NCBI GenBank assembly: GCA_045536095.1
Contig: JAZSMW010000100.1
Location: forward strand, 1 to 33,629
DNA from: Clostridia bacterium
GTDB lineage: Bacteria > Bacillota > Clostridia > Christensenellales > UBA1242
Reading direction: 5' to 3'
DNA: 33,629 bases
Position 1 is the stretch's first letter. Each line of letters opens with the position of its first letter. Shown in pieces: positions 10,808 through 33,626 of this stretch. The notes beneath the pieces were generated by a model that worked only from the letters and a program-made list of their open reading frames with translations, was not told the DNA's origin and did not search any database. The position numbers were made by a program, and so were the translations under genes.

Positions 10808-11239
10808 ATGGAAGAACAGGAGTTATTACAACACAAACAAAACATGATTGAGCGAGGCTCTGCAATTATTTACCCACAACTTGTTCAAGAGTGGATAGAA
10901 CACGTTAACACTTTTGCTGTTTGGCCACATAGCGAAACATTAAAAATTTCGGTAACAATAATGGAAGAGCTAGCCAAAGACACTAAAATAGAAGAAATTG
11001 CCAAATTCATTCCTAACGATTCCGAACTTTCATTAGCAACAATGTTTAACACTGTTACCCGCTTTTCAAAACGTGGTATAGAATTTTTTAAAAATTACTT
11101 TTTATCTTATAAAACCGACATGGCAAGCACCAACGAAAAACATAAACAAATGTGGACCGATTATTTAAGAAAAATACAAGAACAAAATGAAAAATTTGAA
11201 AAAGAATTAATCACCCCAAAACCCGACAAACATCAATAA
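10808..11239 (+). CDS. Hypothetical protein (143 aa)
   Basis: It has an ORF with a GAGG RBS, its own promoter and a downstream hairpin. I recognise no family motif. Confidence 0.5.
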   Translation: MEEQELLQHKQNMIERGSAIIYPQLVQEWIEHVNTFAVWPHSETLKISVTIMEELAKDTKIEEIAKFIPNDSELSLATMFNTVTRFSKRGIEFFKNYFLSYKTDMASTNEKHKQMWTDYLRKIQEQNEKFEKELITPKPDKHQ

Positions 11240-11244
11240 TTAAT

Positions 11245-11277
11245 AAGCGCATTAATTAAAATGCGTTTATTTTTTTA
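11245..11277 (+). terminator. Weak intrinsic terminator after the 143-aa gene
   Basis: Stem AAGCGCAT / ATGCGTTT (includes one G-U pair) is followed by ATTTTTTT. Confidence 0.45.
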
Positions 11278-11352
11278 ATATAATTAAAAATGTTAAATTC
11301 TTACTTGTGTTTTTTTTGTTTTTGTTGTATGCTTTTAGGGTAATATTAATCT

Positions 11353-11438
11353 CCGCACAAAACCGTTTGCTCTTTGCAAACAAAACCCGCAGTTTTGCAG
11401 GTTTAAAAGTTTTTGCACAAAAACTTTGTTTTGTGCGG
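11353..11438 (+). ncRNA. Candidate structured RNA / 5' leader element E1: 86-nt cloverleaf-like four-helix junction 29 nt upstream of the alaS start
   Basis: P1 is a perfect 11-bp helix: CCGCACAAAAC (11353-11363) with GTTTTGTGCGG (11428-11438). It encloses three hairpins: 11365-11381 (6 bp), 11383-11404 (8 bp plus 1 mismatch) and 11406-11427 (9 bp). Junction linkers are 1, 1, 1 and 0 nt. No U-tract follows. Strand is inferred from similarity to E2. Confidence 0.4.
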
Positions 11439-11467
11439 GCAAAAATAAACATATATGGAGAAAATAA

Positions 11468-13276
11468 ATGAAACAAAATTTAAAAGACTTATACATCAAC
11501 TTTTTTATTTCTAAGGGGCACAAACAAATACCATCGGCAAGCGTTGTTCCAGAAAACGACCCTACTTGCCTATTTAACACTGCAGGCATGCAACCACTTG
11601 TTCCATATCTTTTAGGAGCAAAACATCCTCTTGGCACCAGATTGTGCGACTTTCAAAAATGTTTTAGGCTTACCGATTTAGACGAAGTTGGCGACAGTTA
11701 CCACCACACATTTTTTGAAATGCTTGGAAACTGGAGTTTGGGCGACTATTTTAAAAAAGAATCTATTACATGGAGTTACGAATTTTTAACAACAGTTTTA
11801 AACATAGATAAATCTAGATTAGCCTTTACCGTGTTTGAAGGAAACGAATATGTTAAAGCCGACACAGAAAGCGCTCAAATTTGGGAAAGCCTTGGGGTTA
11901 GTAAAGACCGAATTGCATTTTTGCCAGCCGAAGATAACTGGTGGCCTAGCATGGAGCAATTTGGCCCATGTGGAAGCGATACCGAAATTTTTTATTGGGT
12001 AGACAAAACAACTCCAGCTCCCGAAAAATTTGACCCAAGCGATAAGCGTTGGATGGAAATTTGGAACAATGTTTTTATGCAATACAATCATTTACCTAGC
12101 GGAGAATTTGTTCCACTAACCCAACAAAACGTAGACACAGGTATGGGCGTGGAGCGTACAACCGCCGTTCTTGCCGGGCTTAGCGACAACTACCAAACTA
12201 ACATTTGGAAACCAATTATTAACCAAATAGAAAAAATAAGTGGCAAATCTTACCAAGAAAACCAAAAGGCAATGCGCGTTGTTGCCGACCACATTCGTGC
12301 AATTGTTATGATAGCAAGTGATGATGCTGGCATTAAACCATCTAACACCGACCAAGGCTACATTTTAAGACGTTTAATTAGAAGAGTTATTCGTTTTGCA
12401 AAACAACTTGGCATAAACACAACAGAAAATTTTGAAGAAGAAATTATTAATATTATTGTTGACCAATTTAAAGATTATTACGAAGAGGTTGGCAGAAATG
12501 CAAATGTTGTTAAACAAGTGTTTAGTGAAGAAAAAAACAAATTTAACAAAACAATCGAAAACGGCTTAAAAGAATTTGAAAAAGTTCTTGCCGGATTTAG
12601 CCGTAAAGAAGAATTTTTAAGAAGAACCGACCCAAATGCAACTGTTGAGCGCATAATAACAGGAAAAACCGCATTTAATTTATACGAAACTTATGGATTC
12701 CCTATAGAAATGACCGAAGAACTTGCAAAAGAAAGAGGTGTTATGGTAGACACATCTAACTTTAAACAACTTTTTGCCGAGCACCAAGAAAAGTCTAAGG
12801 CAGGAAGTGAGCAAAAATTTAAGGGTGGTTTAAGTGATTCTAGCGAAGAAAATGCACGTCTTCACACAGCAACTCACCTAATGCAAGCCGGGCTTCAAAA
12901 ATTTGTAAGCGCCGACATTCGTCAAAAAGGCTCTAACATAACACCAGAGCGTTTACGCTTTGACTTTAATTGCGATCACAAACTCACCGAAGAAGAACTT
13001 AAACAAGTAGAAGATTTTGTTAACGATGCAATTGCTCAAAACATACCTGTTGAAGTTAGCGAAATGACAGTTGAAGAAGCCAAAGCTTCTGGTGCCCTTG
13101 GAGTGTTTGATAGCAGATACGGCGAAAAAGTAACCGTTTACACAATTGGCAACATTTCTAAAGAAATTTGTGGTGGACCACACGCAAAAAACACTGGCGA
13201 CCTTCACCACTTTAAAATTATTAAAGAAGAATCTTCTTCTAGCGGAATTAGAAGAATTAAAGCAATTTTAGATTAA
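11468..13276 (+). CDS. alaS: Alanine--tRNA ligase, short form (602 aa: catalytic and editing domains, no C-Ala domain)
   Basis: Motifs are GHKQIPSASVVPENDPTCLFNTAGM and FFEMLGNWSLGDYFK. Editing-site motifs are HTATHLM and CGGPHAKNTGD. The ORF ends at GIRRIKAILD, directly after the editing domain. RBS is GGAG. Confidence 0.85.
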   Translation: MKQNLKDLYINFFISKGHKQIPSASVVPENDPTCLFNTAGMQPLVPYLLGAKHPLGTRLCDFQKCFRLTDLDEVGDSYHHTFFEMLGNWSLGDYFKKESITWSYEFLTTVLNIDKSRLAFTVFEGNEYVKADTESAQIWESLGVSKDRIAFLPAEDNWWPSMEQFGPCGSDTEIFYWVDKTTPAPEKFDPSDKRWMEIWNNVFMQYNHLPSGEFVPLTQQNVDTGMGVERTTAVLAGLSDNYQTNIWKPIINQIEKISGKSYQENQKAMRVVADHIRAIVMIASDDAGIKPSNTDQGYILRRLIRRVIRFAKQLGINTTENFEEEIINIIVDQFKDYYEEVGRNANVVKQVFSEEKNKFNKTIENGLKEFEKVLAGFSRKEEFLRRTDPNATVERIITGKTAFNLYETYGFPIEMTEELAKERGVMVDTSNFKQLFAEHQEKSKAGSEQKFKGGLSDSSEENARLHTATHLMQAGLQKFVSADIRQKGSNITPERLRFDFNCDHKLTEEELKQVEDFVNDAIAQNIPVEVSEMTVEEAKASGALGVFDSRYGEKVTVYTIGNISKEICGGPHAKNTGDLHHFKIIKEESSSSGIRRIKAILD

Positions 13277-15028: not shown

Positions 15029-15077
15029 TATCTCATTAATCTAATAACAAATTATCTTGTAAATGCGATATTTCCTA
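15028..15077 (+). repeat. Hairpin repeat, copy A (decayed 5' arm), immediately after the aspS stop
   Basis: The 23-nt core TCTTGTAAATGCGATATTTCCTA (15055-15077) is identical to 28482-28504. The whole ~50 nt aligns with copy B at roughly 85 percent identity. Confidence 0.7.
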
Positions 15078-15089
15078 GATAATTAAATA

Positions 15090-15942: not shown

Positions 15943-16051
15943 TGTTTAAAACTTTTAATAAAATATTTGCCAAAAACTTTACATAACGCTTATTTTAATT
16001 ATTGTGTGATTTTTTAATTGACGAATTGTTTTTAAAACACTATTTTTTTGC

Positions 16052-16082
16052 AAAAAACACAATGAAGTTCATTGTGTTTTTG
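16052..16082 (-). terminator. Intrinsic terminator downstream of the 16108..16524 gene (hairpin usable in both directions)
   Basis: Hairpin ACACAATGA...TCATTGTGT is flanked by an A-run (16052-16057) and a T-run (16077-16081). Confidence 0.6.
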
Positions 16083-16107
16083 TATTTTTACTAATAATTT
16101 ATCTCTA

Positions 16108-16524
16108 CTATAAAATTAAGTCGTCTATGTAACAGTTAAAATACTTTGCAATTTCTAAAAGTTTATTAACCGAAGGGCTTACTTGGTTTTTCCACCTATT
16201 TATATTATCTTTAGAATATCCTAAATCTTTACAAAACTTTCTGTAAGAAATATTTTTAGTTTTTATATATAAAGTTAAATTTTCATAAAATTTTAACTGG
16301 TTTATATTGTACGGTTTAAAATTATTTTCACTGCAAAGTTCAAACAAATAATTTAACGACACTTTTAAATAGTTGGCAATTTTTATAACTGTTTTTAAAC
16401 TAGGAATTCGTTGTGTGTATTTAAAGAACGTATTTTGGCTTATTACATTGCTCTTAAATAAATCTTGTTTTGTTTTTTGTTGTTCCTGTAAAACACTTTC
16501 TACCAAATCAATAAAGTTAATCAT
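16108..16524 (-). CDS. XRE-family transcriptional regulator with two HTH-like modules
   Basis: 138 aa. Two repeats of the Cro/C1 pattern are present: ...QNTFFKYTQRIPSLKTVIKIANYLKVSLNYLF... and ...KDNINRWKNQVSPSVNKLLEIAKYFNCYIDDL. RBS is GGAG. Confidence 0.6.
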   Translation of the reverse strand: MINFIDLVESVLQEQQKTKQDLFKSNVISQNTFFKYTQRIPSLKTVIKIANYLKVSLNYLFELCSENNFKPYNINQLKFYENLTLYIKTKNISYRKFCKDLGYSKDNINRWKNQVSPSVNKLLEIAKYFNCYIDDLIL

Positions 16525-16535
16525 GCAAAATCTCC

Positions 16536-16598
16536 ATACTATAAATAGTATTTCCTATTTTGATGACAAAAAACCTGCCTCTGCCTACTTTGATGACA
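16536..16598. promoter_or_regulatory. Putative operator region of the two-HTH regulator
   Basis: Palindrome ATACTAT-AA-ATAGTAT (16536-16551) lies directly upstream of the SD. Direct repeats TA(T/C)TTTGATGACA occur at 16556-16568 and 16586-16598, 30 bp apart. Confidence 0.45.
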
Positions 16599-16673
16599 TA
16601 ATGTATTGGTGATTTATGAACAAAAATAAATGCAAACATGTAAACGATTGCAATAGTGAAAGAATATAAACAT

Positions 16674-16703
16674 TAAAAAAGGAAGAAATTAAAATCTCTT
16701 CCT
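16674..16703 (-). terminator. Intrinsic terminator of the 81-aa XRE gene
   Basis: Minus strand reads GGAAGA-GATTTTAATT-TCTTCC followed by TTTTTT (plus-strand A-run 16675-16680). Confidence 0.65.
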
Positions 16704-16726
16704 AAGCCACTTTATTTCTTTAAGGG

Positions 16727-16972
16727 TTAATCTACATCTAAGTCTTCATCCTCAAACAATTCCGAAGAAAAAAAGTATTTTGCAGTTACATTTAAACCCC
16801 TACAAATAAGTAAAACAGTTTTAAGATTAACACTGTTATTATCTGCCCTCATTAATGTTTGCATAGTGCTATGTGATATGGCTGTGTTTTTTTCTAAACG
16901 ATATATCGACATATCTTTTTCTAACAATATTTCTTTAATTCTTGCCACAACAGCAGTCGCCACTGATTTCAT
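16727..16972 (-). CDS. XRE-family HTH transcriptional regulator (81 aa)
   Basis: RIKEILLEKDMSIYRLEKNTAISHSTMQTLMRADNNSVNLKTVLLICRGLNV matches the Cro/C1 HTH pattern. RBS is AGGAG. It is divergent from the SLOG gene. Confidence 0.7.
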   Translation of the reverse strand: MKSVATAVVARIKEILLEKDMSIYRLEKNTAISHSTMQTLMRADNNSVNLKTVLLICRGLNVTAKYFFSSELFEDEDLDVD

Positions 16973-16984
16973 AAATTCACTCCT

Positions 16985-17099
16985 GTATTGTTTTCACAAT
17001 ACTATTGTAGTTATGCTTATAAAATTTATACGATTGTAAAAACAATAGTATTTTGTTGCTCCAATTTACAATTTTATTTATAATATTGTATAAACAATA
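16985..17099. promoter_or_regulatory. Divergent control region with three copies of the inverted repeat (T)ATTGT-N4-ACAAT(A), plus the SLOG-gene promoter
   Basis: Op1 is GTATTGT-TTTC-ACAATAC (16985-17002). Op2 is ATTGT-AAAA-ACAAT (17033-17046). Op3 is TATTGT-ATAA-ACAATA (17084-17099). The promoter is TTGCTC (17056-17061), a 17-nt spacer, then TATAAT (17079-17084). Op3 overlaps the end of the -10 and the expected TSS. Confidence 0.6.
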
Positions 17100-17115
17100 C
17101 CAAATGTGAGGTTGT

Positions 17116-17559
17116 ATGTACAAAAAAGTTGTTTGCTTTGTTGGTCACCGATACGAATGGCAAAATATTGGAATTTATAATAAATTAAAAGACACAATAA
17201 TTAATTTAATAGAAAAAGGTTATACAACGTTTTATGACGGTGGAAAGGACAGTTTTGATAATATTAGTGCCAATATTGTTTTAGAATTAAAAAATAAATA
17301 TCCACAAATTAAACTCTATAAAATTTTAACCTATTATCACCATGAAAAATCTAAATGGGAATTACCTAATGGCTATAATGGTTCAATAATACCCGACATA
17401 GCTCGTTTTCATCCAAAGTTAAAAATAACCAAAAAAAACGAATGGATTGTTAACAATAGCGACATTGTAGTTTGTCATATACGCGAAACATACAAAAGCG
17501 GCGCATATAACACGTTAAAATATGCAAGAAAAATAAGCAAACCTATTATTTATTTATAA
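17116..17559 (+). CDS. SLOG-fold, YpsA/DUF1273-like protein
   Basis: 147 aa. The pattern CFVGHR...GGKDSFDNISANIVLELKNKYPQIKLYKIL...KKNEWIVNNSDIVVCH...GAYNTLKYARK matches my recollection of the DUF1273/SLOG signature. RBS is GAGG. Confidence 0.55.
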   Translation: MYKKVVCFVGHRYEWQNIGIYNKLKDTIINLIEKGYTTFYDGGKDSFDNISANIVLELKNKYPQIKLYKILTYYHHEKSKWELPNGYNGSIIPDIARFHPKLKITKKNEWIVNNSDIVVCHIRETYKSGAYNTLKYARKISKPIIYL

Positions 17560-17567
17560 CAATCAAT

Positions 17568-23547: not shown

Positions 23548-24123
23548 TTATGCATTCTCTTTAAACATTTGTTCTTTTTTTTCAAACTTTGCAATTAGTT
23601 TTTCTATTTCTTTAATTGTTTTATCTAAATTTAAGTTTTCAATTACAACATCGTAGTTTTTTACGTACGAAAGTTCAAACTCCATGCGAGACATTCTTAA
23701 ATCTATATCGTGATCACCCCTTGCCTTTAGCCTTTTAATAAGTTCTTCTTTAGGTGCAGTTAAAAATATAGATAACACAACCGCCTTTTTCTTTAACGCC
23801 TCTTTAATGTTTTTTTGCCCCAAAACACCAATATCTTTAATAAAGTGACAACTGCTTTTTGACACTTCTTCTAACGAAGAATTTAGCATGCCATAAAAAT
23901 TTTGATGTACCTCTTCGTGCTCAAAAAGTTCGCCATTTTTAATTTTATTTTCAAACTCATCTCTTGAAAGGTATATATATGGGCTATGCATATCTTCATC
24001 GGTGCTTCTTGGCCTTCTGGTTGTGCAGGTTTGAAGAAGTTTTATATTACTATGTTTTTCTAATAATTTGGTAATAACCGTGTTTTTTCCAACTCCCGAA
24101 GAGCCCGAAATTATAACTAGCAT
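23548..24123 (-). CDS. gmk: Guanylate kinase-like protein
   Basis: 191 aa. P-loop is ISGSSGVGKNT. TTRRPRS...YIYLSRDEFE matches the guanylate-kinase signature region. RBS is AAGGAG. Confidence 0.7.
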   Translation of the reverse strand: MLVIISGSSGVGKNTVITKLLEKHSNIKLLQTCTTRRPRSTDEDMHSPYIYLSRDEFENKIKNGELFEHEEVHQNFYGMLNSSLEEVSKSSCHFIKDIGVLGQKNIKEALKKKAVVLSIFLTAPKEELIKRLKARGDHDIDLRMSRMEFELSYVKNYDVVIENLNLDKTIKEIEKLIAKFEKKEQMFKENA

Positions 24124-24242
24124 ACATGCTCCTTTTTAAAAAATAATGCTAGTTTAGATTTTAGCAAACAAATACCTTTTTTGGCAAATGTTTTAAGCAC
24201 AATATTACAACAATTTTATACATTTTTTGCAATCTATAAATA

Positions 24243-25136
24243 TTACAAAACTTCGTAGTTTAGTTTTACGTTTTCACCAGTTTCGGCATCTTGATATGTT
24301 ATATAGTAACCAAAACCGTCTTCTTTTTCGGTATCTATTGGTAACCACTCACAAAAACCCTTTATATCTTCTGGTGGCAACGCACTTTTGGTGCTTGGAA
24401 CTCCATAACACACATATTTTATTTTTCCATTTTCATACAAAAGCCCAACAACGTAATACTCACCCTTTTCTTCGTAGTCTATTTTTACCCATTTACTTTC
24501 TGGGATTATTTGCTTTAATATTTCATCTTCGGGATATTTGTTAAAAAGTTCATTTATTTGCTCTTCTATATTGTCAAAAAAAGTGTCTTCTTTAACTGGA
24601 GCTGGAGAAGTATCATCTTCTTGCTTAAAAAAGGCATCACGATATTTACAAGTAGCACATGCATTTTCGGTCTCTAAAATTTGGTCTATTTGCTCATCAA
24701 TCTCTTCTTGATCTTCTAAGTATATTTTGTTTTGATTTAAATTTTCTTCAACTTCTTTAACCGTTGGCTTTTGATCAAACACATTAAGTGCGTTACACAA
24801 GCCCTCTTCTGTTTCACTTATTCCGTTAGTAGAGCCCATAAGCAACGGTTTTGCATCTCCGTTTACAAAATTAACAAGTGCGCACGAAAAAGAGTTAAAG
24901 TTGTTTTCTCCATTTATTTTAAATGAATAAAACCCATTATTCTCTTTTGTTAAACCGGCTTTTGTAACCTTTTGGTTATGTAATATTCCAAGGCTTAAAA
25001 TTCCATTTGGTTCTTTTTCAAAGTTATATAGTCTTACATTGCCAAGTGTTTCGCCATTGTCATATTCTAATGTTACAACCGCTTTTTGTTTGCCTCCACA
25101 CAAACTTGTTAGCACAACACTTTTTTTATATATCAT
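24243..25136 (-). CDS. Hypothetical protein (297 aa, acidic, CATC motif)
   Basis: Long ORF with a strong RBS (GGAGGAAAT-ATG). I recognise no family. Confidence 0.55.
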   Translation of the reverse strand: MIYKKSVVLTSLCGGKQKAVVTLEYDNGETLGNVRLYNFEKEPNGILSLGILHNQKVTKAGLTKENNGFYSFKINGENNFNSFSCALVNFVNGDAKPLLMGSTNGISETEEGLCNALNVFDQKPTVKEVEENLNQNKIYLEDQEEIDEQIDQILETENACATCKYRDAFFKQEDDTSPAPVKEDTFFDNIEEQINELFNKYPEDEILKQIIPESKWVKIDYEEKGEYYVVGLLYENGKIKYVCYGVPSTKSALPPEDIKGFCEWLPIDTEKEDGFGYYITYQDAETGENVKLNYEVL

Positions 25137-25241
25137 ATTTCCTCCAATTAGTTTTTGTTATTATATGATATTATTTGTAGCCTTTGTGTATATATTATTG
25201 TTTTATTTTGGCTTAATTTTGCTTTTTTTAGCAAAAAAAAT

Positions 25242-25331
25242 ACAGCCACTGCAAACCATTTGATGTTCAAAGGGTTTAGCCTGCAAAAATTGCAGGCTGT
25301 GGGTTGACAAATGGCAACCCGCAGTGGCTGT
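25242..25331 (-). ncRNA. Candidate structured RNA element E2: 90-nt four-helix junction between rsmA and the 297-aa gene; may double as a branched terminator
   Basis: P1 is an 11-bp helix (25242-25252 with 25321-25331). It encloses hairpins 25253-25277 (10 bp plus 1 mismatch), 25278-25298 (8-9 bp) and 25301-25320 (6 bp). On the minus strand P1 is followed by A-U8 (25241-25233). The architecture is the same as E1. Confidence 0.4.
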
Positions 25332-25351
25332 TTGCTCATAAATTTTATTTA

Positions 25352-26179
25352 TTAAACAACTTCACTTATTTTATTAACTATTTTAACAAAGTCGGCGGTA
25401 GCTAAGGCATCGCCCCTTACCGATTCGCTGTATCCAAGATCGGTTAATAACTTTGTTAACTGGCCTTTGCTTATTTTAAAGTCTTTGCTTAAATTATTTG
25501 CCAAAGTTTTTCTTCGGTTAGAAAATGCACTTTTAACCACACTTTCAAAAATTTCCACATTTGCATTGTATTTATATTTAACAAAATTAATTTGCACAAC
25601 ACACGAATCTACATTTGGTGCCGGCACAAACATATGTCTTGGCACATTTCGTAAAATCTTTACATCTCCATAAAAATCTAATATTGTCGAAATAGAACCA
25701 TATTCTGCACTAGAACAGTCCGCAACCAATCGTTGTGCCACCTCTTTTTGAACCATAATGCTCATACTTTTACACTTGCTTGTTTTTCCCACAAACTTAA
25801 ATATTAGTGGTGTTGTAATATAATATGGCAAGTTTGCAACAATTTTATATTCACCTTCAAAATTTGCCTCTATTTGTTTAAGGTCGGTTTTAAGAGCATC
25901 TGCAAAAATTATTTCACTGTTTTTAACATCTGCCAAATTTTCCTCTAAAATTGGTTTAAGATTTTGGTCTATTTCGTAACTAACAACACGCTTAGCACAT
26001 TTTGCAATAACCTTAGTTAACGTTCCTGCTCCCGGACCAATTTCTAGCACTTCATCATCTTTTGTTATTTTGCTATCGCTAATTATAGCCTCTAGTAAAT
26101 TTGTATCAAAAATAAAGTTTTGCCCAAACTTTTTGTTAAACTTAAAATCATTTTTTTCTAAAACACTTAATTCACTCAT
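25352..26179 (-). CDS. rsmA: 16S rRNA (adenine1518/1519-N6)-dimethyltransferase
   Basis: 275 aa. KKFGQNFIFDTNLL and EIGPGAGTLT motifs are present. It lies directly downstream of tatD, as in Bacillus. Confidence 0.95.
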   Translation of the reverse strand: MSELSVLEKNDFKFNKKFGQNFIFDTNLLEAIISDSKITKDDEVLEIGPGAGTLTKVIAKCAKRVVSYEIDQNLKPILEENLADVKNSEIIFADALKTDLKQIEANFEGEYKIVANLPYYITTPLIFKFVGKTSKCKSMSIMVQKEVAQRLVADCSSAEYGSISTILDFYGDVKILRNVPRHMFVPAPNVDSCVVQINFVKYKYNANVEIFESVVKSAFSNRRKTLANNLSKDFKISKGQLTKLLTDLGYSESVRGDALATADFVKIVNKISEVV

Positions 26180-26189
26180 ACATTACCCT

Positions 26190-26951
26190 TTAAATTTTAT
26201 AAAATCTTTCGGCATTTTTGGTTGTAATTTCTTCTAATTCTTTAACCTCAAGGCCTCGTATTTCGGCAATTTTTTCTAACGTTTTAACAACATATTTAGG
26301 TTGGTTTATTTTAGACCTAAACGGAACCGGCGCTAAATATGGGCAGTCGGTTTCTAGCATTAATAAATTTATATCACACTCTTTTGCAACATTTAACACA
26401 TTATTTGCGTTTTTAAATGTAACAATTCCCCCTAACGAAATATAAAAACCCATTTTGGTAATTTCTTTTAAAATTTCTGTGCTCATACTAAAACAATGAA
26501 TGCACACACCATTTGTTAATTTGTGAGCATTTTGTTTTAAAATTTCAAGAGTATCCCCAGTGGCATCTCTTGAATGAATAACAACCGGAAGTTTAAGTTT
26601 TTGTGCTAAATCTATTTGTTTTAAAAACACTTCTTTTTGTTTTTCTCGAGTAGCAAACTCGTGGCAGTAATCTAACCCAATTTCGCCAATTGCAACAACT
26701 TTTTTGTTTTGTGCAAGGTGCTCTAAAACACTAATGGTTTGCTCGTTAAACGAATTAGCCTCTTCGGGATGAACACCAACAGTTGCAAAAACACACTCGT
26801 AACGATTTGCCAATTCTACCGCATTTAATGAAGAGTTTTCATCACTACTAGCACAAACAATTTTGCTAACACCACTTTCTTTTGCACTATTAATTATTTC
26901 GTCTACATTTTCAAACATTTTGTCTTGCAAATGTGCATGAGTATCTATCAT
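26190..26951 (-). CDS. tatD: TatD-family metal-dependent hydrolase/DNase
   Basis: MIDTHAHL start motif, plus GEIGLDY and VIHSRDA motifs. I prefer the start at 26951, which has GGAG 8 nt upstream, over the ORF-track 27011. Confidence 0.9.
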   Translation of the reverse strand: MIDTHAHLQDKMFENVDEIINSAKESGVSKIVCASSDENSSLNAVELANRYECVFATVGVHPEEANSFNEQTISVLEHLAQNKKVVAIGEIGLDYCHEFATREKQKEVFLKQIDLAQKLKLPVVIHSRDATGDTLEILKQNAHKLTNGVCIHCFSMSTEILKEITKMGFYISLGGIVTFKNANNVLNVAKECDINLLMLETDCPYLAPVPFRSKINQPKYVVKTLEKIAEIRGLEVKELEEITTKNAERFYKI

Positions 26952-26967
26952 AATTTTCTCCAATATC

Positions 26968-26996
26968 ATTTTAAGTGTTTTTGCCAAAGTTGTCAA
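26968..26996 (-). promoter_or_regulatory. Promoter of the tatD-rsmA operon
   Basis: Minus strand reads TTGACA (26996-26991), a 17-nt spacer, then TAAAAT (26973-26968). The ~16-nt leader contains GGAG. Confidence 0.65.
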
Positions 26997-27026
26997 CAAT
27001 GCCTTAAACAAAATTGAATCTAATAT

Positions 27027-28219: not shown

Positions 28220-28452
28220 CCCTAAAGGCTAAATTTAGCCACTTTTAGTTATTATACATAAATAATAACACAATTTTTTATTTATACAAAACAATTTATC
28301 AAATTACAAAAAAAAGATATATAATATTTTATTTAAAAAAATCTTGAATATTCGTTTTTACAAAGTTTAACAGTTTTAATTAATTACAACATAAATAAGC
28401 TGGTCAAAACTTATGGCGCTAAGCCAATTGATAGATTCCTTTGGTACGGGCA

Positions 28453-28507
28453 GATATCGCATTTAATCTGAGAATAAATTCTCTTGTAAATGCGATATTT
28501 CCTACTA
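28453..28507 (+). repeat. Hairpin repeat, copy B (intact)
   Basis: ATATCGCATTTA (28454-28465) pairs perfectly with TAAATGCGATAT (28487-28498). The inner stem is GAGAA-TAAA-TTCTC. The 23-nt core at 28482-28504 is identical to 15055-15077. Confidence 0.7.
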
Positions 28508-28510
28508 TAT

Positions 28511-28553
28511 AAAAAAAAGCGCACTGTCCCATTAACAGTGCGTAATTTTTTTT
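28511..28553. terminator. Bidirectional terminator (serves the 69-aa gene on the minus strand)
   Basis: A8, then CGCACTGT-CCCATTA-ACAGTGCG, then TAA-T8. Confidence 0.75.
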
Positions 28554-30695: not shown

Positions 30696-30740
30696 GGTGG
30701 ACATTTGGTGGACACGTCAAAATTTTAAAAAGTGTCCACC
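30696..30740. repeat. Motif cluster 1: GGTGGACA x2 direct plus TGTCCACC inverted (DnaA-box-like)
   Basis: GGTGGACA at 30696-30703 and 30707-30714. TGTCCACC at 30733-30740. Confidence 0.8.
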
Positions 30741-30747
30741 AACAAAA

Positions 30748-30785
30748 CAAAAAAAACACCCAAACATTCAAATTGTCCGAGTGTT
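30748..30785 (-). terminator. Intrinsic terminator of the 144-aa gene
   Basis: Minus-strand RNA reads AACACUC...GGGUGUU, with one U-G wobble that would be a C-A mismatch on the plus strand. A U-run follows. Confidence 0.6.
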
Positions 30786-30791
30786 ATTTCT

Positions 30792-31226
30792 CTATTTAGA
30801 TAGTGAATCAATTTCAGCTAAAAAGTTCTGATATTCTTTATTTTGTTCTTGTTCATACTTTTTATATAACAAATCAATTTTTTCTTGGATTTCTTTTGGC
30901 AATTCAAGCTGTACAACAGATGGCCTAGGCCCTCTTGTAGCCGTACGAGATCTTGTACTCTCCACTTTTTTCCCGTATTTAATTATTATTTGATTGATTA
31001 TATCAAAACCTTTTTGATTGTCTTTTTTATAATAATCTTTTAACAAATCTATTAATATTCCTGCATATTTTTGACTAATTTCGTGCATTTCTCGTTCTGC
31101 TGGATTACTAGCAAATGAATTGTATTGTTCAGTCGTTTCATTTCCCAAAGCCCAAACATACCAGTTTACATATTTTCTAAAATTATTTCTTCTTACTTTT
31201 TCTTTTAATTTATCTACAATTTTCAT
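30792..31226 (-). CDS. Hypothetical protein (144 aa)
   Basis: RBS is AAGGAGA. It has its own promoter and terminator. I recognise no family. It is flanked by the 8-mer clusters. Confidence 0.55.
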   Translation of the reverse strand: MKIVDKLKEKVRRNNFRKYVNWYVWALGNETTEQYNSFASNPAEREMHEISQKYAGILIDLLKDYYKKDNQKGFDIINQIIIKYGKKVESTRSRTATRGPRPSVVQLELPKEIQEKIDLLYKKYEQEQNKEYQNFLAEIDSLSK

Positions 31227-31251
31227 AGTTTCTCCTTAACTTTAAGATAAG

Positions 31252-31280
31252 TATATCATAAAAATTTTGTCTTTGCAATA
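31252..31280 (-). promoter_or_regulatory. Promoter of the 144-aa gene
   Basis: Minus strand reads TTGCAA (31280-31275), a 17-nt spacer, then TATACT (31257-31252). The spacer end TTTTTATGATATACT closely resembles the LRR-gene promoter. Confidence 0.6.
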
Positions 31281-31390
31281 GTGAAATACTAAAAGGTGCA
31301 ATGAAAAATTAATTGCAACAAAAAGATGTTGTGGAGGTCGCTTAAAAAGTGCCGTTCCAGCCGAAATAATTACTCAAATTTTACCACTTT

Positions 31391-31446
31391 TGTCCACCAG
31401 TGAAATCCGCGGTGGACATTTCGTGGACATTTTGGGTTGGTGGACA
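31391..31446. repeat. Motif cluster 2a: TGTCCACC followed by three copies of (G)GTGGACA
   Basis: TGTCCACC at 31391-31398. GGTGGACA at 31411-31418. cGTGGACA at 31422-31429. GGTGGACA at 31439-31446. Confidence 0.8.
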
Positions 31447-31459
31447 CGTTTTAAAAATT

Positions 31460-31488
31460 AAAAAGTGCCGTATTATCGGGCACTTTTT
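31460..31488. terminator. Hairpin with flanking A and T runs (terminator-like, bidirectional)
   Basis: AAAAAGTGCCG-TATTAT-CGGGCACTTTTT with one bulged G. Confidence 0.5.
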
Positions 31489-31554
31489 AATTTTAAACTA
31501 TTCAATTCCATCATAATTATATTATAACACACCAAAAACATTTTTCAAAGCTTA

Positions 31555-31632
31555 TTGGCACTAGGTGGCATTTTTTACCCTGTTTTGCGTACTTAATATA
31601 CCAACAGAAACACTTTTTGGCACTAGGTGGCA
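31555..31632 (+). repeat. Two identical 16-mers TTGGCACTAGGTGGCA, 62 bp apart
   Basis: Copies at 31555-31570 and 31617-31632. Each contains TGGCA twice with a 10-nt start-to-start period. Confidence 0.8.
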
Positions 31633-31633
31633 C

Positions 31634-31706
31634 TTGTCCACACCCACAGACGCAACCCCAAGGTGGACAAAATGTGGACAACAAAATTTTTCTAATTTTG
31701 TCCACC
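31634..31706. repeat. Motif cluster 2b: four DnaA-box-like 9-mers forming two inverted pairs
   Basis: TTGTCCACA at 31634-31642. GGTGGACAA at 31662-31670. TGTGGACAA at 31673-31681 (reverse complement TTGTCCACA). TTGTCCACC at 31698-31706. Confidence 0.8.
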
Positions 31707-31797
31707 ATAGCAAGAAAAAGACACTCAAAATTTAATCTGAATGTCTTGTAATTTATTTACTTAATGCATCTTCATTGTTATTTTTTGATTTTCTGTA

Positions 31798-33429
31798 TTA
31801 TTCAACTTCTTTAATTTCTTCCTTACTAAATATTGGTTTTGTAAAATCTGGAAGCCAATCTTTTTTATATCGTGCTTCTTTAATCTGTCCTGTTGGTTGT
31901 GGTATTATTATACCTCGCATTATTTCCTTTACGGCGTTCTTATTTTTAGTTCCATTCACTAACAAATCGATTAACTTTTTTTGTCTTGATTGAATTTGTG
32001 TTAATTGCTCTTGACTTGCAGAAGAATTTGGCAAATCTCTTGCCTTGTCAATAAGTCCACTTAAAGCTGTTCCTATTTGCAAAAGCATGTCCTCATCAAA
32101 TCTTGCACCATAAGGAAAATAAACAGAATATCCTCTCTCGTATTCGTATGGAGCATATACTGAATAATTATCCATCTCTTTTTTAAAGAATGTTACACTT
32201 GTGAAAAATTCTTCGTATTCTTTTGAATATCTTGTATTTGATATTGGTTGCAAATGGTCTGTCACAGATATATGACTATCTGCAGATATCGATATATCGC
32301 AAACAACATCATTAGTATAACCACCGCATTTATAGTCCCTTTTTTCGCAATTTAAAAGCCAATTTAATGTTCCGCCACTAGGAATTAGTGTTTGTTTATA
32401 GTATTCTTCTCTTTCTTGTGAAACTACACTTTTCTGATATTCTTGCATTACTGGGATATCAATAGTTATTGTTTCCTGTTTTTCTCTATCAACAAAAGTA
32501 ACTTTGCCTTTATAACCACTTTTCAAAATAGTTTGAATTGTGTCTTGATTATACGCTATCACTTCTTTTACACCGACCAAAGCGTCGGGTTTAATTATGA
32601 TTTTCCCATGAGTCCATAAAATTTTATGTCCTAAAATATCGGTTTCTCTATATTTTATACCCAACTCATCATATAATGCTTTTTTATCTTCATCACTAAT
32701 ATCTTCTTCAAGATATTCAATTTCGTCCAAATTAAAATCATCGCCCATTTCTGCTAGATATTGTTTTTCGATTTCTTGTTGTTCTTTGATTACATCTTGC
32801 AAATATTTTTTATCATCATCAAGGAATGTTATTGTTAAGTTTTTACAGCCAGCAAAAGCTGCTGTATCAACCAACTCTACACTTGCAGGGATTTCAATAG
32901 ATTGTAAGTTTTCACAACCAGCAAAGGCATATCCGGATATAAACCAACAACCTTCAGGAATGTTTATTGTGGTTAAATTTTTACATTCTCTAAAAGCTGC
33001 ATTAGCAATAGTTGTGGTAGTTTGTGGCAATTTTATACTTTTTAGATTTGCACATTCCTGATAACCATCAACCGTTTTCATAGTTTCTGCATTTTCTAAT
33101 CCTTTGATTTCTGTTAAATTATCACAACCTTGAAAGGCAAATGGGTGAATAAATCTTACACCTTCATGCATTATTACAGTATGTAAATTTTTAAGATGTG
33201 AAAAGGCGAACATGTTTATACTTTTAATATGTTCTGGAACTATAAAAGCACCATCTTGTATGTTTTGTGGATAAACTTTTCTTAATAATTCTCCTTCAAC
33301 TGATATTCCGTCATACATACTTGTTGTTTGTTGTTCCATAGGAATAATTGTAGCTTCTTCCACAATTTCTGATTTTTTATCATTATTTTCATGTTTATGT
33401 TTCTTTTTAAAATAATCAAATATTCCCAT
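31798..33429 (-). CDS. BspA-type leucine-rich-repeat (LRR_5) protein with an unassigned ~330-aa C-terminal region and no signal peptide
   Basis: 543 aa. Repeats of the form AF.GC.NL..I.IP (FAFQGCDNLTEI, AAFRECKNLTTINIP, YAFAGCENLQSIEIP, AAFAGCKNLTITF) are present. The N-terminus MGIFDYFKKKHKHENNDKK is hydrophilic. RBS is AGGAG. Confidence 0.8.
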   Translation of the reverse strand: MGIFDYFKKKHKHENNDKKSEIVEEATIIPMEQQTTSMYDGISVEGELLRKVYPQNIQDGAFIVPEHIKSINMFAFSHLKNLHTVIMHEGVRFIHPFAFQGCDNLTEIKGLENAETMKTVDGYQECANLKSIKLPQTTTTIANAAFRECKNLTTINIPEGCWFISGYAFAGCENLQSIEIPASVELVDTAAFAGCKNLTITFLDDDKKYLQDVIKEQQEIEKQYLAEMGDDFNLDEIEYLEEDISDEDKKALYDELGIKYRETDILGHKILWTHGKIIIKPDALVGVKEVIAYNQDTIQTILKSGYKGKVTFVDREKQETITIDIPVMQEYQKSVVSQEREEYYKQTLIPSGGTLNWLLNCEKRDYKCGGYTNDVVCDISISADSHISVTDHLQPISNTRYSKEYEEFFTSVTFFKKEMDNYSVYAPYEYERGYSVYFPYGARFDEDMLLQIGTALSGLIDKARDLPNSSASQEQLTQIQSRQKKLIDLLVNGTKNKNAVKEIMRGIIIPQPTGQIKEARYKKDWLPDFTKPIFSKEEIKEVE

Positions 33430-33453
33430 ATTTACTCCTATAAATTTTATATT

Positions 33454-33482
33454 AGTATATCATATAAAAAGAGCAAATACAA
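33454..33482 (-). promoter_or_regulatory. Promoter of the LRR gene
   Basis: Minus strand reads TTGTAT (33482-33477), a 17-nt spacer, then TATACT (33459-33454). The spacer end is TTTTTATATGATATACT. Confidence 0.55.
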
Positions 33483-33617
33483 TACTTAAATCACAAAAGG
33501 CCAACTGAAGTTTTAAATACAGAAAAAACGATATGAAACCATTTTAAAGTTATTTACATTAGACAAGTTTCAATAAGTTCCGTCTGGTGCAAAAAAAATT
33601 CCTGAAAACTACCTTTT

Positions 33618-33626
33618 TTGTCCACC
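33618..33626. repeat. Another TTGTCCACC box at the window edge
   Basis: TTTTTTGTCCACCGG has the same flank pattern as TTTTGTCCACCAG at 31388-31400. A further cluster may continue beyond the window. Confidence 0.6.

What the first reader, a model, noticed from the sequence alone, without database searches (positions are those of the whole stretch)
25242..25331. Second four-helix junction (E2) with the same architecture as E1 but a different helix sequence
Read on the minus strand (sense to rsmA), E2 has an 11-bp P1, then a 6-bp, an 8-9-bp and a 10-bp hairpin. E1 shows the same order and sizes on the plus strand (6, 8, 9 bp). The middle hairpins are nearly identical (E1 CCCGCA-GTTTTGCAGG, E2 CCTGCAATTTTTGCAGG), while P1 differs completely yet stays fully paired. 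That pattern is expected for a conserved RNA fold. Unlike E1, E2 is followed by U8, so it may also terminate rsmA; a branched terminator would be unusual.
Basis: seen in the sequence. Interest (0 to 1): 0.65.

Follow-up and report, generated by a model that had tools for sequence, protein, structure and literature searches.

The report
Species-specific four-helix palindromic insertion element
A 90-base stretch after the rsmA gene of an uncultured gut Clostridia bacterium folds into a near-perfect four-helix junction. It is a diverged sister of a second copy in front of alaS, is missing from every related species examined, and most likely acts as an unusual branched transcription terminator rather than an ancient conserved RNA.

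Summary
E2 (25242-25331) folds as an 11-bp closing stem plus hairpins of 6, 9 and 10 bp, followed by A+U8 on the rsmA strand. E1 (11353-11438) has the same layout.

They are the first and third most stable 110-nt folds in the window. A covariance model built from E2 alone finds E1(+) at 37.5 bits; the best unrelated hit scores 13.9. E1(+) and E2(-) are 67% identical (z 5.4). Of 33 comparable pairs, 12 changed on both sides and stayed Watson-Crick. The two are therefore homologous and share one orientation relative to their genes.

The "conserved RNA family" reading is only partly supported:
- Both elements are absent from the same intergenic sites in every relative checked (RsmA 70-76% identical, AlaRS 80-90%).
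- No other copy turned up in relatives' loci or in pattern-selected metagenome and virus loci, and Rfam has no match.
- None of about 71 pairs is G·U, and both strands fold equally well.

Best reading: a species-specific, structure-maintained insertion element with a conserved three-hairpin core and a variable closing stem. E2 sits between the rsmA stop and the next gene's conserved -10 and probably terminates rsmA. Termination, RNA-versus-DNA action and copy number remain untested.

The parts
25242..25331 (-). E2, the complete four-helix element (90 nt), in the sense orientation of rsmA
   Evidence: MFE fold. Model R1 scores it 112.8 bits. It is present in same-species contig L011 and in runs X1 and X2.
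25321..25331 (-). P1 5' arm, ACAGCCACUGC
   Evidence: Pairs with 25242-25252 over 11 Watson-Crick bp, 7 of them G-C.
25301..25320 (-). H1 hairpin, GGGUUG-CCAUUUGU-CAACCC
25278..25298 (-). H2 hairpin, AGCCUGCAA-UUU-UUGCAGGCU. This is the segment most similar to E1.
25253..25277 (-). H3 hairpin, AAACC(C)UUUGA-ACA-UCAAA(U)GGUUU, with a C.U mismatch in this strain
   Evidence: In L011 and X1, position 25258 is C on the plus strand, which gives a perfect 11-bp stem.
25242..25252 (-). P1 3' arm, GCAGUGGCUGU
25233..25241 (-). A + U8 tract directly 3' of P1. This is the proposed termination point for rsmA.
   Evidence: Read from the sequence. The function is inferred.
25352..26179 (-). rsmA (16S rRNA dimethyltransferase, PF00398). 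Its stop codon lies 20 nt upstream of E2.
25160..25165 (-). TATAAT -10 hexamer of the downstream gene (24243-25136), inside the motif ATATCATATAAT that is conserved in relatives. E2 lies between the rsmA stop and this promoter.
   Evidence: The motif is present in L001, L002, L003, L013 and L015, which lack E2.
11353..11438 (+). E1, the sister element (86 nt), in the sense orientation of alaS. It has an 11-bp P1 and hairpins at 11365-11381, 11383-11404 and 11406-11427. No U tract follows.
11341..11346 (+). TAATAT -10-like hexamer of alaS, conserved with relatives. E1 starts 6 nt downstream of it, and the GGAG ribosome-binding site lies at 11457-11460.
   Evidence: Comparison with L018 and L138. 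The transcription start site is inferred.

Best explanation
E2 is one of at least two diverged copies (with E1) of a roughly 90-nt, species-specific insertion element. Its single strand folds into a nearly perfect four-helix junction. The element has a conserved three-hairpin core, about 75% identical between the copies, enclosed by an 11-bp closing stem whose sequence is free but always fully complementary.

Both copies landed in transcribed spacers in the same orientation as the flanking gene. E2 lies between the rsmA stop codon and the conserved promoter of the next gene. There its closing stem, followed directly by A+U8, most likely works as a Rho-independent terminator and 3'-end protector for rsmA mRNA.

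Proposed sequence of events at E2:
1. H1, H2 and H3 fold locally as they are transcribed.
2. The compact junction holds the two P1 arms close together.
3. P1 closes next to the U tract and releases the transcript.

E1 has the same fold but no U tract. It sits at the predicted 5' end of the alaS mRNA and would not terminate. At most it would cap the 5' end.

Shown: the fold, the homology, the relative orientation, the lineage-specific presence and the positions relative to the stop codon and the -10 hexamers. Inferred: mobility, termination, stabilisation and action at the RNA level.
For: Fold.

Homology and orientation:
- R1 was built from E2 only. It hits E1(+) at 37.5 bits, E1(-) at 24.1 bits and background at no more than 13.9 bits.
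- Alignment gives 56/84 identities, z 5.4.

Structure kept through change: 12 of 33 comparable pairs changed on both sides and 1 on one side (H2 arms corrected by hand).

Variable stem against conserved core: P1 keeps 4 of 11 pairs, the core helices keep 16 of 22 (Fisher p = 0.065).

Insertion:
- The synteny rsmA then MIYKKS gene is kept in L001, L002, L003, L013, L015 and L185. Their spacers are about 65 to 175 nt and lack E2.
- The alaS -10 region is conserved in L018 and L138, but E1 is missing there and in L017, L019, L021 and L139.

Fixed within the species: L011, X1 and X2 carry E2, and X1 and X9 carry E1.

Terminator geometry: the 11-bp stem has 7 G-C pairs and ends 1 nt before U8. It lies 20 nt after the stop codon and upstream of the conserved ATATCATATAAT promoter motif.

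Possible third, partial copy: a second X1 contig matches E2 positions 25287-25321 (35 nt, 4 differences) within different flanks.
Against: - Only two full copies are known, so calling this a family rests on one pair.
- No target-site duplication is visible at either copy.
- No transposase, integrase or HUH nuclease is encoded in the window.
- No relative shows an empty site carrying only a P1 hairpin.
- The relatives have no terminator at this position, so a terminator is not obviously needed there.
- A 68-nt branched loop is far outside normal terminator loops, and the simple scan does not call it.
- E1 shows that the fold exists without a U tract.
- A purely selfish DNA repeat would not be expected to keep pairing through 12 double changes, unless the fold itself is needed for spread.
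- No transcript data exist for this organism.
Confidence: 0.45

Rival explanations
1. A functional cis-acting RNA module selected at the RNA level. The four-helix junction would be a portable structured cap that stabilises or insulates mRNA ends, at the 5' end of alaS and the 3' end of rsmA, or that binds a protein. Its spread would be secondary.
For: - Both copies are sense to the flanking genes and lie in the predicted UTRs.
- Twelve pair changes between the copies are compensatory.
- In E1 the single mismatch (C.A) leaves the other 34 pairs intact.
Against: - None of about 71 pairs is G.U, which is unusual for an RNA under selection in a 32% G+C genome.
- Both strands fold equally well.
- Loops and junction bases, the usual functional parts, are the least conserved, while the core stems are the most conserved (alignment).
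- Relatives do without it.
- A pair-breaking SNP at 25258 is tolerated in this strain and in X2.
- Rfam gives no match.
Confidence: 0.2
2. A DNA-level structured mobile element. The folded single-stranded DNA, or an extruded cruciform, would be the substrate of a recombinase or HUH-type transposase encoded elsewhere in the genome. The conserved three-hairpin core may insert into the loop of a pre-existing hairpin, which would then become the variable P1. Any effect on transcription would be a by-product.
For: - All pairs are Watson-Crick and both strands fold with equal stability, also with DNA parameters.
- P1 is unrelated between the copies (4 of 11 pairs), while the core is about 75% identical.
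- The junctions have 0-2 unpaired bases, as expected if a compact module sits in a hairpin apex.
- Insertion sequences that target palindromes are known: IS1397, ISKpn1 and IS621 insert into REP sequences (PMC1525189).
Against: - No enzyme gene is nearby.
- No simple P1-only hairpin is seen at the orthologous sites.
- Only two copies are known.
- The P1-versus-core contrast is marginal (p = 0.065).
Confidence: 0.2
3. In-situ growth of palindromes by replication template switching, with no mobility and no function. The similarity between E1 and E2 would come from biased low-complexity sequence.
For: - Template switching can create perfect hairpins (bioRxiv 10.1101/2021.04.15.439925, found).
- The same clade carries other compound palindromes in spacers: E3 in L017/L018 and a three-way structure in L011.
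- The alaS leader differs in every relative.
Against: - 67% identity over the full length, specific to one orientation (z 5.4 against 2.0).
- The hairpin order and sizes are identical at two unlinked sites, which independent accretion does not predict.
Confidence: 0.08
4. A small invertible segment (inverton) of 68 bp flanked by 11-bp inverted repeats that switches a promoter or terminator.
For: Perfect 11-bp inverted repeats flank both elements.
Against: - Every assembly that spans the core shows the same orientation: the window, L011 and the contigs of X1 and X2.
- No invertase gene is in the window.
- The inverton model does not explain why the interior consists of three perfect hairpins.
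Confidence: 0.03

Closest known systems
Rho-independent (intrinsic) terminators
   Same: E2 has a G+C-rich stem that ends 1 nt before a run of eight U. It lies 20 nt after a stop codon and ahead of the next promoter.
   Different: The loop is a 68-nt three-hairpin junction instead of 3-8 nt. The sister copy E1 has the same fold without a U tract, so the fold is not defined by termination.
REP / BIME / REPIN extragenic palindromes (own knowledge; reviews PMC3184786 and PMC3337134 found)
   Same: Short, G+C-enriched palindromic units in transcribed spacers. They are lineage-specific and are linked to termination and mRNA stabilisation.
   Different: REPs are single 20-40-nt hairpins with a conserved GTAG or CGTC end, hundreds of near-identical copies and a RAYT gene. 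Here there are four helices, no such tag, two copies at 67% identity and no RAYT in view.
Bacterial MITEs and modular repeats such as Correia, RUP, BOX and ERIC (own knowledge)
   Same: A size of about 90-150 bp, terminal inverted repeats, strong predicted RNA folds, insertion into spacers, and effects on neighbouring transcripts.
   Different: MITE copies share their terminal repeats and decay by random mutation. Here the terminal stem differs entirely between the copies while the pairing is kept, and no target duplication is seen.
Integron attC sites (own knowledge)
   Same: They are defined by a folded single strand rather than by sequence. Long attC sites can have branched central parts.
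   Different: The RYYYAAC/GTTRRRY core sites are absent, there is no integron integrase or cassette array, and the two copies lie 14 kb apart among housekeeping genes.
Four-way-junction riboswitches (SAM-I, yybP-ykoY, NiCo) and tRNA-like cloverleaves
   Same: About 90 nt, with a closing stem and three further helices.
   Different: There is no Rfam or ARAGORN match. The helices are perfect, with no internal loops, and the junction has almost no unpaired bases, so there is no ligand pocket or conserved core.

Membership tests
Intrinsic terminator | G+C-rich stem immediately followed by a U tract | tested here: met
   In E2, P1 has 11 bp with 7 G-C pairs and is followed by A+U8. E1 does not meet this feature: GCAAAAAUAAAC follows its P1.
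Intrinsic terminator | Simple hairpin with a short loop of about 3-8 nt | tested here: not met
   The loop is a 68-nt three-hairpin multiloop. The consensus scan reports no terminator at 24000-27000.
Intrinsic terminator | Transcript 3' ends map to the U tract | not testable with these tools
   Only DNA runs hold this sequence.
MITE | Terminal inverted repeats | tested here: met
   Both elements have perfect 11-bp terminal inverted repeats.
MITE | Target-site duplication flanking the element | tested here: not met
   The flanks GAGCAAA|...|ATTTTTTTT (E2) and TTAATCT|...|GCAAAAAT (E1) show no adjacent direct repeat. A 6-nt AGCAAA repeat lies 25 nt beyond E2 and is not adjacent to it.
MITE | Many copies that share terminal repeats with an autonomous IS | tested here: inconclusive
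   Two copies have unrelated terminal repeats. No transposase is in the window. The rest of the genome was not available.
REP/REPIN | Single 20-40-nt hairpin with a GTAG or CGTC tag, high copy number and an associated RAYT | tested here: not met
   The element has four helices and no such tag at either end. No other near-identical copy exists in the metagenomes that hold the species.
Any Rfam family, including SAM-I, yybP-ykoY, NiCo, T-box and the Clostridiales motifs | Covariance-model score at or above the gathering threshold | tested here: not met
   The window has no hits at gathering score. The best sub-threshold hits are unrelated, scoring at most 23 bits against cut-offs of 50 or more.
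tRNA or tRNA-like | Cloverleaf with 7/4/5/5-bp arms and conserved D and T loops | tested here: not met
   ARAGORN finds nothing in the window. The arms here are 11, 6, 9 and 10 bp.
Integron attC | R''/R' core sites (RYYYAAC ... GTTRRRY) and a nearby integrase or cassette array | tested here: not met
   The outer arms are ACAGCCACTGC and CCGCACAAAAC. Pfam scans of the neighbouring ORFs show no integrase.
Inverton | Both orientations present in populations, with an invertase nearby | tested here: inconclusive
   Every assembly that spans the core shows one orientation: the window, L011, X1 and X2. Only contigs were available, not raw reads. No invertase is in the window.
E1/E2 element family (defined here) | Full-length match to the E2-derived covariance model, well above background | tested here: met
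   E1(+) scores 37.5 bits against 13.9 or less for background. There were no hits in 254 kb of relatives, 129 kb of metagenome loci or 227 kb of viral loci.

The most novel reading that the evidence does not exclude
A new kind of structure-defined mobile module. A conserved three-hairpin core comes to sit inside an arbitrary, perfectly paired closing stem, for example by inserting into the apex of an existing hairpin. This produces four-helix junctions that the host then uses as branched terminators (E2) or as 5'-end caps (E1). The fold itself, not the sequence, would be what is selected and propagated.
Probability: 0.15. Interest if true: 0.65.

Novelty: new variant of a known kind. Interest (0 to 1): 0.42.

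Why it matters
If the reading is right, this is a small spacer element whose copies keep a four-helix fold through a dozen double substitutions while the closing stem is exchanged completely. That behaviour differs from REPs and MITEs, which share sequence and decay.

It would also be a natural example of an intrinsic terminator with a multi-branched loop. Such terminators are missed by current predictors and are useful as a test case for termination models.

The practical stakes are modest. The element is so far confined to one rare, uncultured gut species, and none of the proposed functions has been measured.

Tried and rejected
- Known RNA families. Rfam at gathering score over the whole window, and at E up to 10 around both elements, gave nothing relevant. 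ARAGORN found no tRNA or tmRNA.
- Phages and plasmids. BLAST of E2 against phages and of E1 and E2 against plasmids gave nothing or only chance 24-44-nt matches.
- Other copies by identity. 31-mer run searches with E2 alone and E1 alone found only the runs that also hold the flanks. Laying contigs at 80% likeness found only one 35-nt partial match.
- Other copies by pattern.
  - The shared hairpin pattern CCTGCAAAAN{1,2}TGCRGG is unspecific. It hit 116 or more viral loci, none in a four-helix context.
  - A 30-nt pattern spanning H2 and H3 matched both elements and nothing in shuffles.
  - The same pattern gave 19 metagenome and 3 viral hits. A second pattern spanning H1 and H2 gave 23 more viral hits. 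All appear to be chance matches, and none fits model R1.
- Orthologous conservation. No E2 or E1 was found at the syntenic sites of 12 related loci, so classical covariation across species could not be measured.
- MAFFT alignment of E1 and E2 with flanks was useless. The trimmed alignment was out of register in H1 and H3, so pairs were counted from the covariance-model alignment and by hand.
- blastn-short of E1 and E2 against all loci gave only chance 10-15-mers.
- A 12-mer shared between E1's H1 and the alaS leader of L139, in inverse orientation, was judged too weak to use.
- The simple terminator scan does not call E2, because the scan only allows loops of 3-8 nt.
- No mobility gene was found by Pfam in the unannotated ORFs.

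Full report
**What is there**

On the strand of rsmA (minus), positions 25331 to 25242 read as follows:
- P1 5' arm: ACAGCCACUGC
- H1: GGGUUG-CCAUUUGU-CAACCC
- junction: AC
- H2: AGCCUGCAA-UUU-UUGCAGGCU
- H3: AAACC(C)UUUGA-ACA-UCAAA(U)GGUUU
- P1 3' arm: GCAGUGGCUGU
- tail: A, then UUUUUUUU

RNA folding of 121 nt gives exactly this four-helix junction at -53.6 kcal/mol, z = -6.79, with 0 of 200 shuffles as stable. The structure is unchanged in a 301-nt context.

E1 lies at 11353-11438 on the plus strand. It has an 11-bp P1 (CCGCACAAAAC/GUUUUGUGCGG) and hairpins of 6, 8 (+1 mismatch) and 9 bp, at -37.3 kcal/mol, z = -4.15.

Tests against chance:
- In a sliding scan of all 110-nt windows on both strands, E2 is the most stable and E1 the third most stable fold of the 33.6-kb window.
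- A strict descriptor (closing stem of at least 8 bp plus three hairpins of at least 5 bp) found only E1, E2 and the same-species copy of E2 with strong energies in 295 kb of window plus related loci.
- The same descriptor gave 9 weak hits in 40 dinucleotide shuffles of the window. None was below -32.5 kcal/mol, against -39 and -50 for the real elements.

The reverse complements fold equally well: E2(+) at -53.4 kcal/mol and E1(-) at -41.5 kcal/mol. DNA parameters give the same junction on both strands.

**Are E1 and E2 related?**

- A covariance model built only from E2 (this window plus the same-species contig L011) was run over the whole window without filters. It scores E2(-) at 112.8 bits, E2(+) at 42.1, E1(+) at 37.5 (E about 9e-7, full length) and E1(-) at 24.1. 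Everything else scores 13.9 or less.
- A plain global alignment of E1(+) with E2(-) has 56 identities in 84 aligned positions, z = 5.4, with 0 of 2000 shuffles as good. E1(-) against E2(-) gives z = 2.0.
- I compared helix by helix, using with the H2 arms corrected by hand and the CM alignment. Thirty-three pairs can be compared. Twenty are identical. Twelve differ on both sides and remain Watson-Crick. One differs on one side (E1 C.A where E2 has U-A).
- Seven of the twelve double changes are in P1, which keeps only 4 of 11 pairs. The three inner helices keep 16 of 22 (Fisher p = 0.065).

The picture is a fairly conserved three-hairpin core inside a closing stem that is free in sequence but strictly complementary. 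Loops and junction bases are not conserved.

**Where it comes from**

The organism is an uncultured, low-G+C (about 32%) gut Clostridia bacterium. The nearest species genomes have RsmA at 70% identity. The sequence occurs in only a handful of gut and faecal metagenome runs.

E2 site in relatives. Six related species keep the gene order rsmA then a 297-300-aa gene beginning MIYKKS. None has E2.

| Locus | RsmA identity |
|---|---|
| L001, L002, L003 | 69-72% |
| L013, L015 | 74% |
| L185 | 76% |

In these relatives the spacer is about 65-175 nt. It contains the conserved motif ATATCATATAAT (a -10 box) and no E2. In this window the spacer is 215 nt, with E2 sitting between the rsmA stop and that motif.

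E1 site in relatives. Six relatives with AlaRS 80-90% identical lack E1: L017, L018, L138, L139, L019 and L021. In L018 and L138 the alaS -10 region aligns with the window, and the ribosome-binding site follows within a few bases or after a short unrelated hairpin.

Within the species, both elements are fixed. E2 is in L011, X1 and X2, and E1 is in X1 and X9. The only variation inside E2 is a loop change (25265) and position 25258. In L011 and X1 that position restores a perfect 11-bp H3. In this strain and X2 it is a tolerated mismatch.

Both elements are therefore recent, lineage-specific insertions into transcribed spacers, not ancient conserved RNAs.

**Search for more members**

- The model found nothing in 254 kb from 19 related loci.
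- Exact-word searches with E1 or E2 alone found only runs that hold the species.
- Phage and plasmid collections gave nothing.
- A 30-nt degenerate pattern that matches both elements, and no shuffle of the window, retrieved 19 metagenome and 3 viral loci. A second pattern retrieved 23 more viral loci. None fits the model or forms the junction.
- The only lead is a second contig in run X1. It matches 25287-25321 (the H2 3' arm plus H1; 35 nt, 4 differences) within different flanks. I could not retrieve that contig.
- Rfam has no match at the gathering threshold or at E up to 10. ARAGORN finds no tRNA-like gene.
- Pfam scans of the unannotated ORFs show no transposase, integrase or invertase in the window.

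**How it most likely works**

E2's P1 is an 11-bp stem with seven G-C pairs. It ends one base before eight U's, 20 nt after the rsmA stop and upstream of the next gene's own promoter. That is the geometry of an intrinsic terminator, except that the loop is 68 nt folded into three perfect local hairpins.

Each inner hairpin can form as soon as it is transcribed, and the junction has only two unpaired bases. The two P1 arms should therefore be held close together, and P1 can close when its 3' arm emerges, next to the U tract. This mechanism is inferred from the accepted model of intrinsic termination. It has not been measured. The simple scanner does not call E2 because it only allows loops of 3-8 nt. 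Relatives have no terminator at this site, so the insertion would have uncoupled rsmA from the downstream gene.

E1 has no U tract. It starts 6 nt after the conserved -10-like hexamer and ends 18 nt before GGAG, so it would form the very 5' end of the alaS mRNA. A 5'-terminal helix could protect against 5'-end-dependent decay. This rests on my general knowledge of Firmicutes mRNA decay and is not tested here.

**RNA or DNA?**

This is unresolved.
- For an RNA role: both copies are sense to their genes, and the fold is kept through 12 double changes.
- Against an RNA role: none of about 71 pairs is G.U, both strands are equally stable, the stems are more conserved than the loops, and a pair-breaking SNP circulates.
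- This pattern fits a DNA-level constraint, meaning a folded single strand or cruciform used for spread, at least as well as it fits an RNA role.
- The contrast between the unrelated P1 stems and the conserved core suggests that the core may occupy the apex of a hairpin that is not part of the mobile unit. Insertion sequences that target palindromes are known (IS1397, ISKpn1 and IS621 into REP sequences; PMC1525189). However, no P1-only hairpin was found at the empty sites, so this remains a hypothesis.

**Comparison with known systems**

E2 works like an intrinsic terminator but fails the short-loop criterion. E1 shows that the fold is independent of termination.

The element resembles REP/BIME units and bacterial MITEs in size, location, lineage specificity and strong folds. 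It differs in several ways:
- It lacks a target duplication.
- It lacks shared terminal repeats.
- It lacks the REP tag.
- High copy number has not been shown.
- It maintains pairing where those elements decay.

It is not an attC site, because it has no core sites, integrase or cassette array. It is not a riboswitch or tRNA-like RNA. I therefore class it as a new variant of the known kind "structured palindromic spacer repeats".

**Verdict**

The "conserved RNA fold" interpretation is only partly supported. The evidence points to a species-specific insertion element whose four-helix fold is maintained, with E2 probably co-opted as a branched terminator.

Interest is moderate (0.42). The structure-preserving divergence and the possible branched terminator are unusual. 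However, only two copies are known in one rare organism, and nothing has been tested at the transcript level.

Noticed in passing
L017 12762-12899; L018 7722-7866; L138 3895-3950: A third element, E3, has a closing stem plus three hairpins and lies between aspS and a methyltransferase in the closest relatives. In L017 the closing stem is 16 bp. In L018 the element is decayed, and in L138 only the 5' half remains. Model R1 does not hit it, so it is a different sequence family with the same architecture in the same clade. The window has unrelated sequence at that site.
   Followed up: partly
window 28441-28505 and 15032-15080; L017 8650-8715: A second repeat family is a hairpin flanked by GTACGGGCAG ... 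TTCCTAC. The two window copies share TTGTAAATGCGATATTTCCTA. The L017 copy keeps the stem through compensatory changes (GCATTTA/TAAATGC against GTGTTTTG/CAAACAC). In the window a strong terminator hairpin follows at 28517-28547, so this may be a small RNA gene. Rfam gives no match.
   Followed up: partly
window 30696-33619: The octamer GGTGGACA (reverse complement TGTCCACC) occurs 9 times, mostly in the spacers around 30700-30740 and 31390-31450. It occurs at most once in any related locus. The cluster looks like binding sites for an unknown protein and resembles a DnaA box only loosely.
   Followed up: no
window 25287-25321 (run X1, second contig of 1272 nt): A lower-coverage contig in the same metagenome matches the H2 3' arm plus H1 of E2 (35 nt, 4 differences), with different sequence on both sides. 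It may be a partial third family member. I could not retrieve the contig.
   Followed up: partly
window about 15960-17565, against L011 14778-14838: This strain carries about 1.6 kb that the same-species contig L011 lacks. The extra DNA encodes a Cro/C1-type HTH protein (16108-16524) and a YpsA/SLOG-like protein (17116-17559). At the same place L011 has a three-way-junction palindrome (L011 14811-14904) between convergent genes.
   Followed up: partly
window 16985-17100: A cluster of inverted repeats built on TATTGTTTTCACAATA lies upstream of the YpsA-like ORF. These are probably operator sites for the adjacent HTH protein.
   Followed up: no
alaS leaders: window 11347-11467; L018 2360-2399; L138 148-178; L139 4420-4493: The short stretch between the alaS -10 and the ribosome-binding site differs in every relative. 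L018 has nothing there. L138 has a 5-bp hairpin. L139 has a long-loop hairpin whose arms, TTGTTTGC/GCAAACGG, equal E1's H1 arms in the inverse orientation. This site appears to be a hot spot for palindrome turnover.
   Followed up: partly
window 11468-13276: AlaRS is only 602 aa in this whole clade. It has the catalytic and editing (tRNA_SAD) domains but, judged from its length, no C-terminal C-Ala domain. None of the alaS leaders examined shows a T-box.
   Followed up: no
window 10808-11239: A 143-aa ORF with no Pfam match and its own terminator (11242-11271) lies between the hexapeptide-repeat gene and alaS. It is absent from L018. It looks like another lineage-specific insertion next to E1, separated from it by the conserved alaS promoter.
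   Followed up: no
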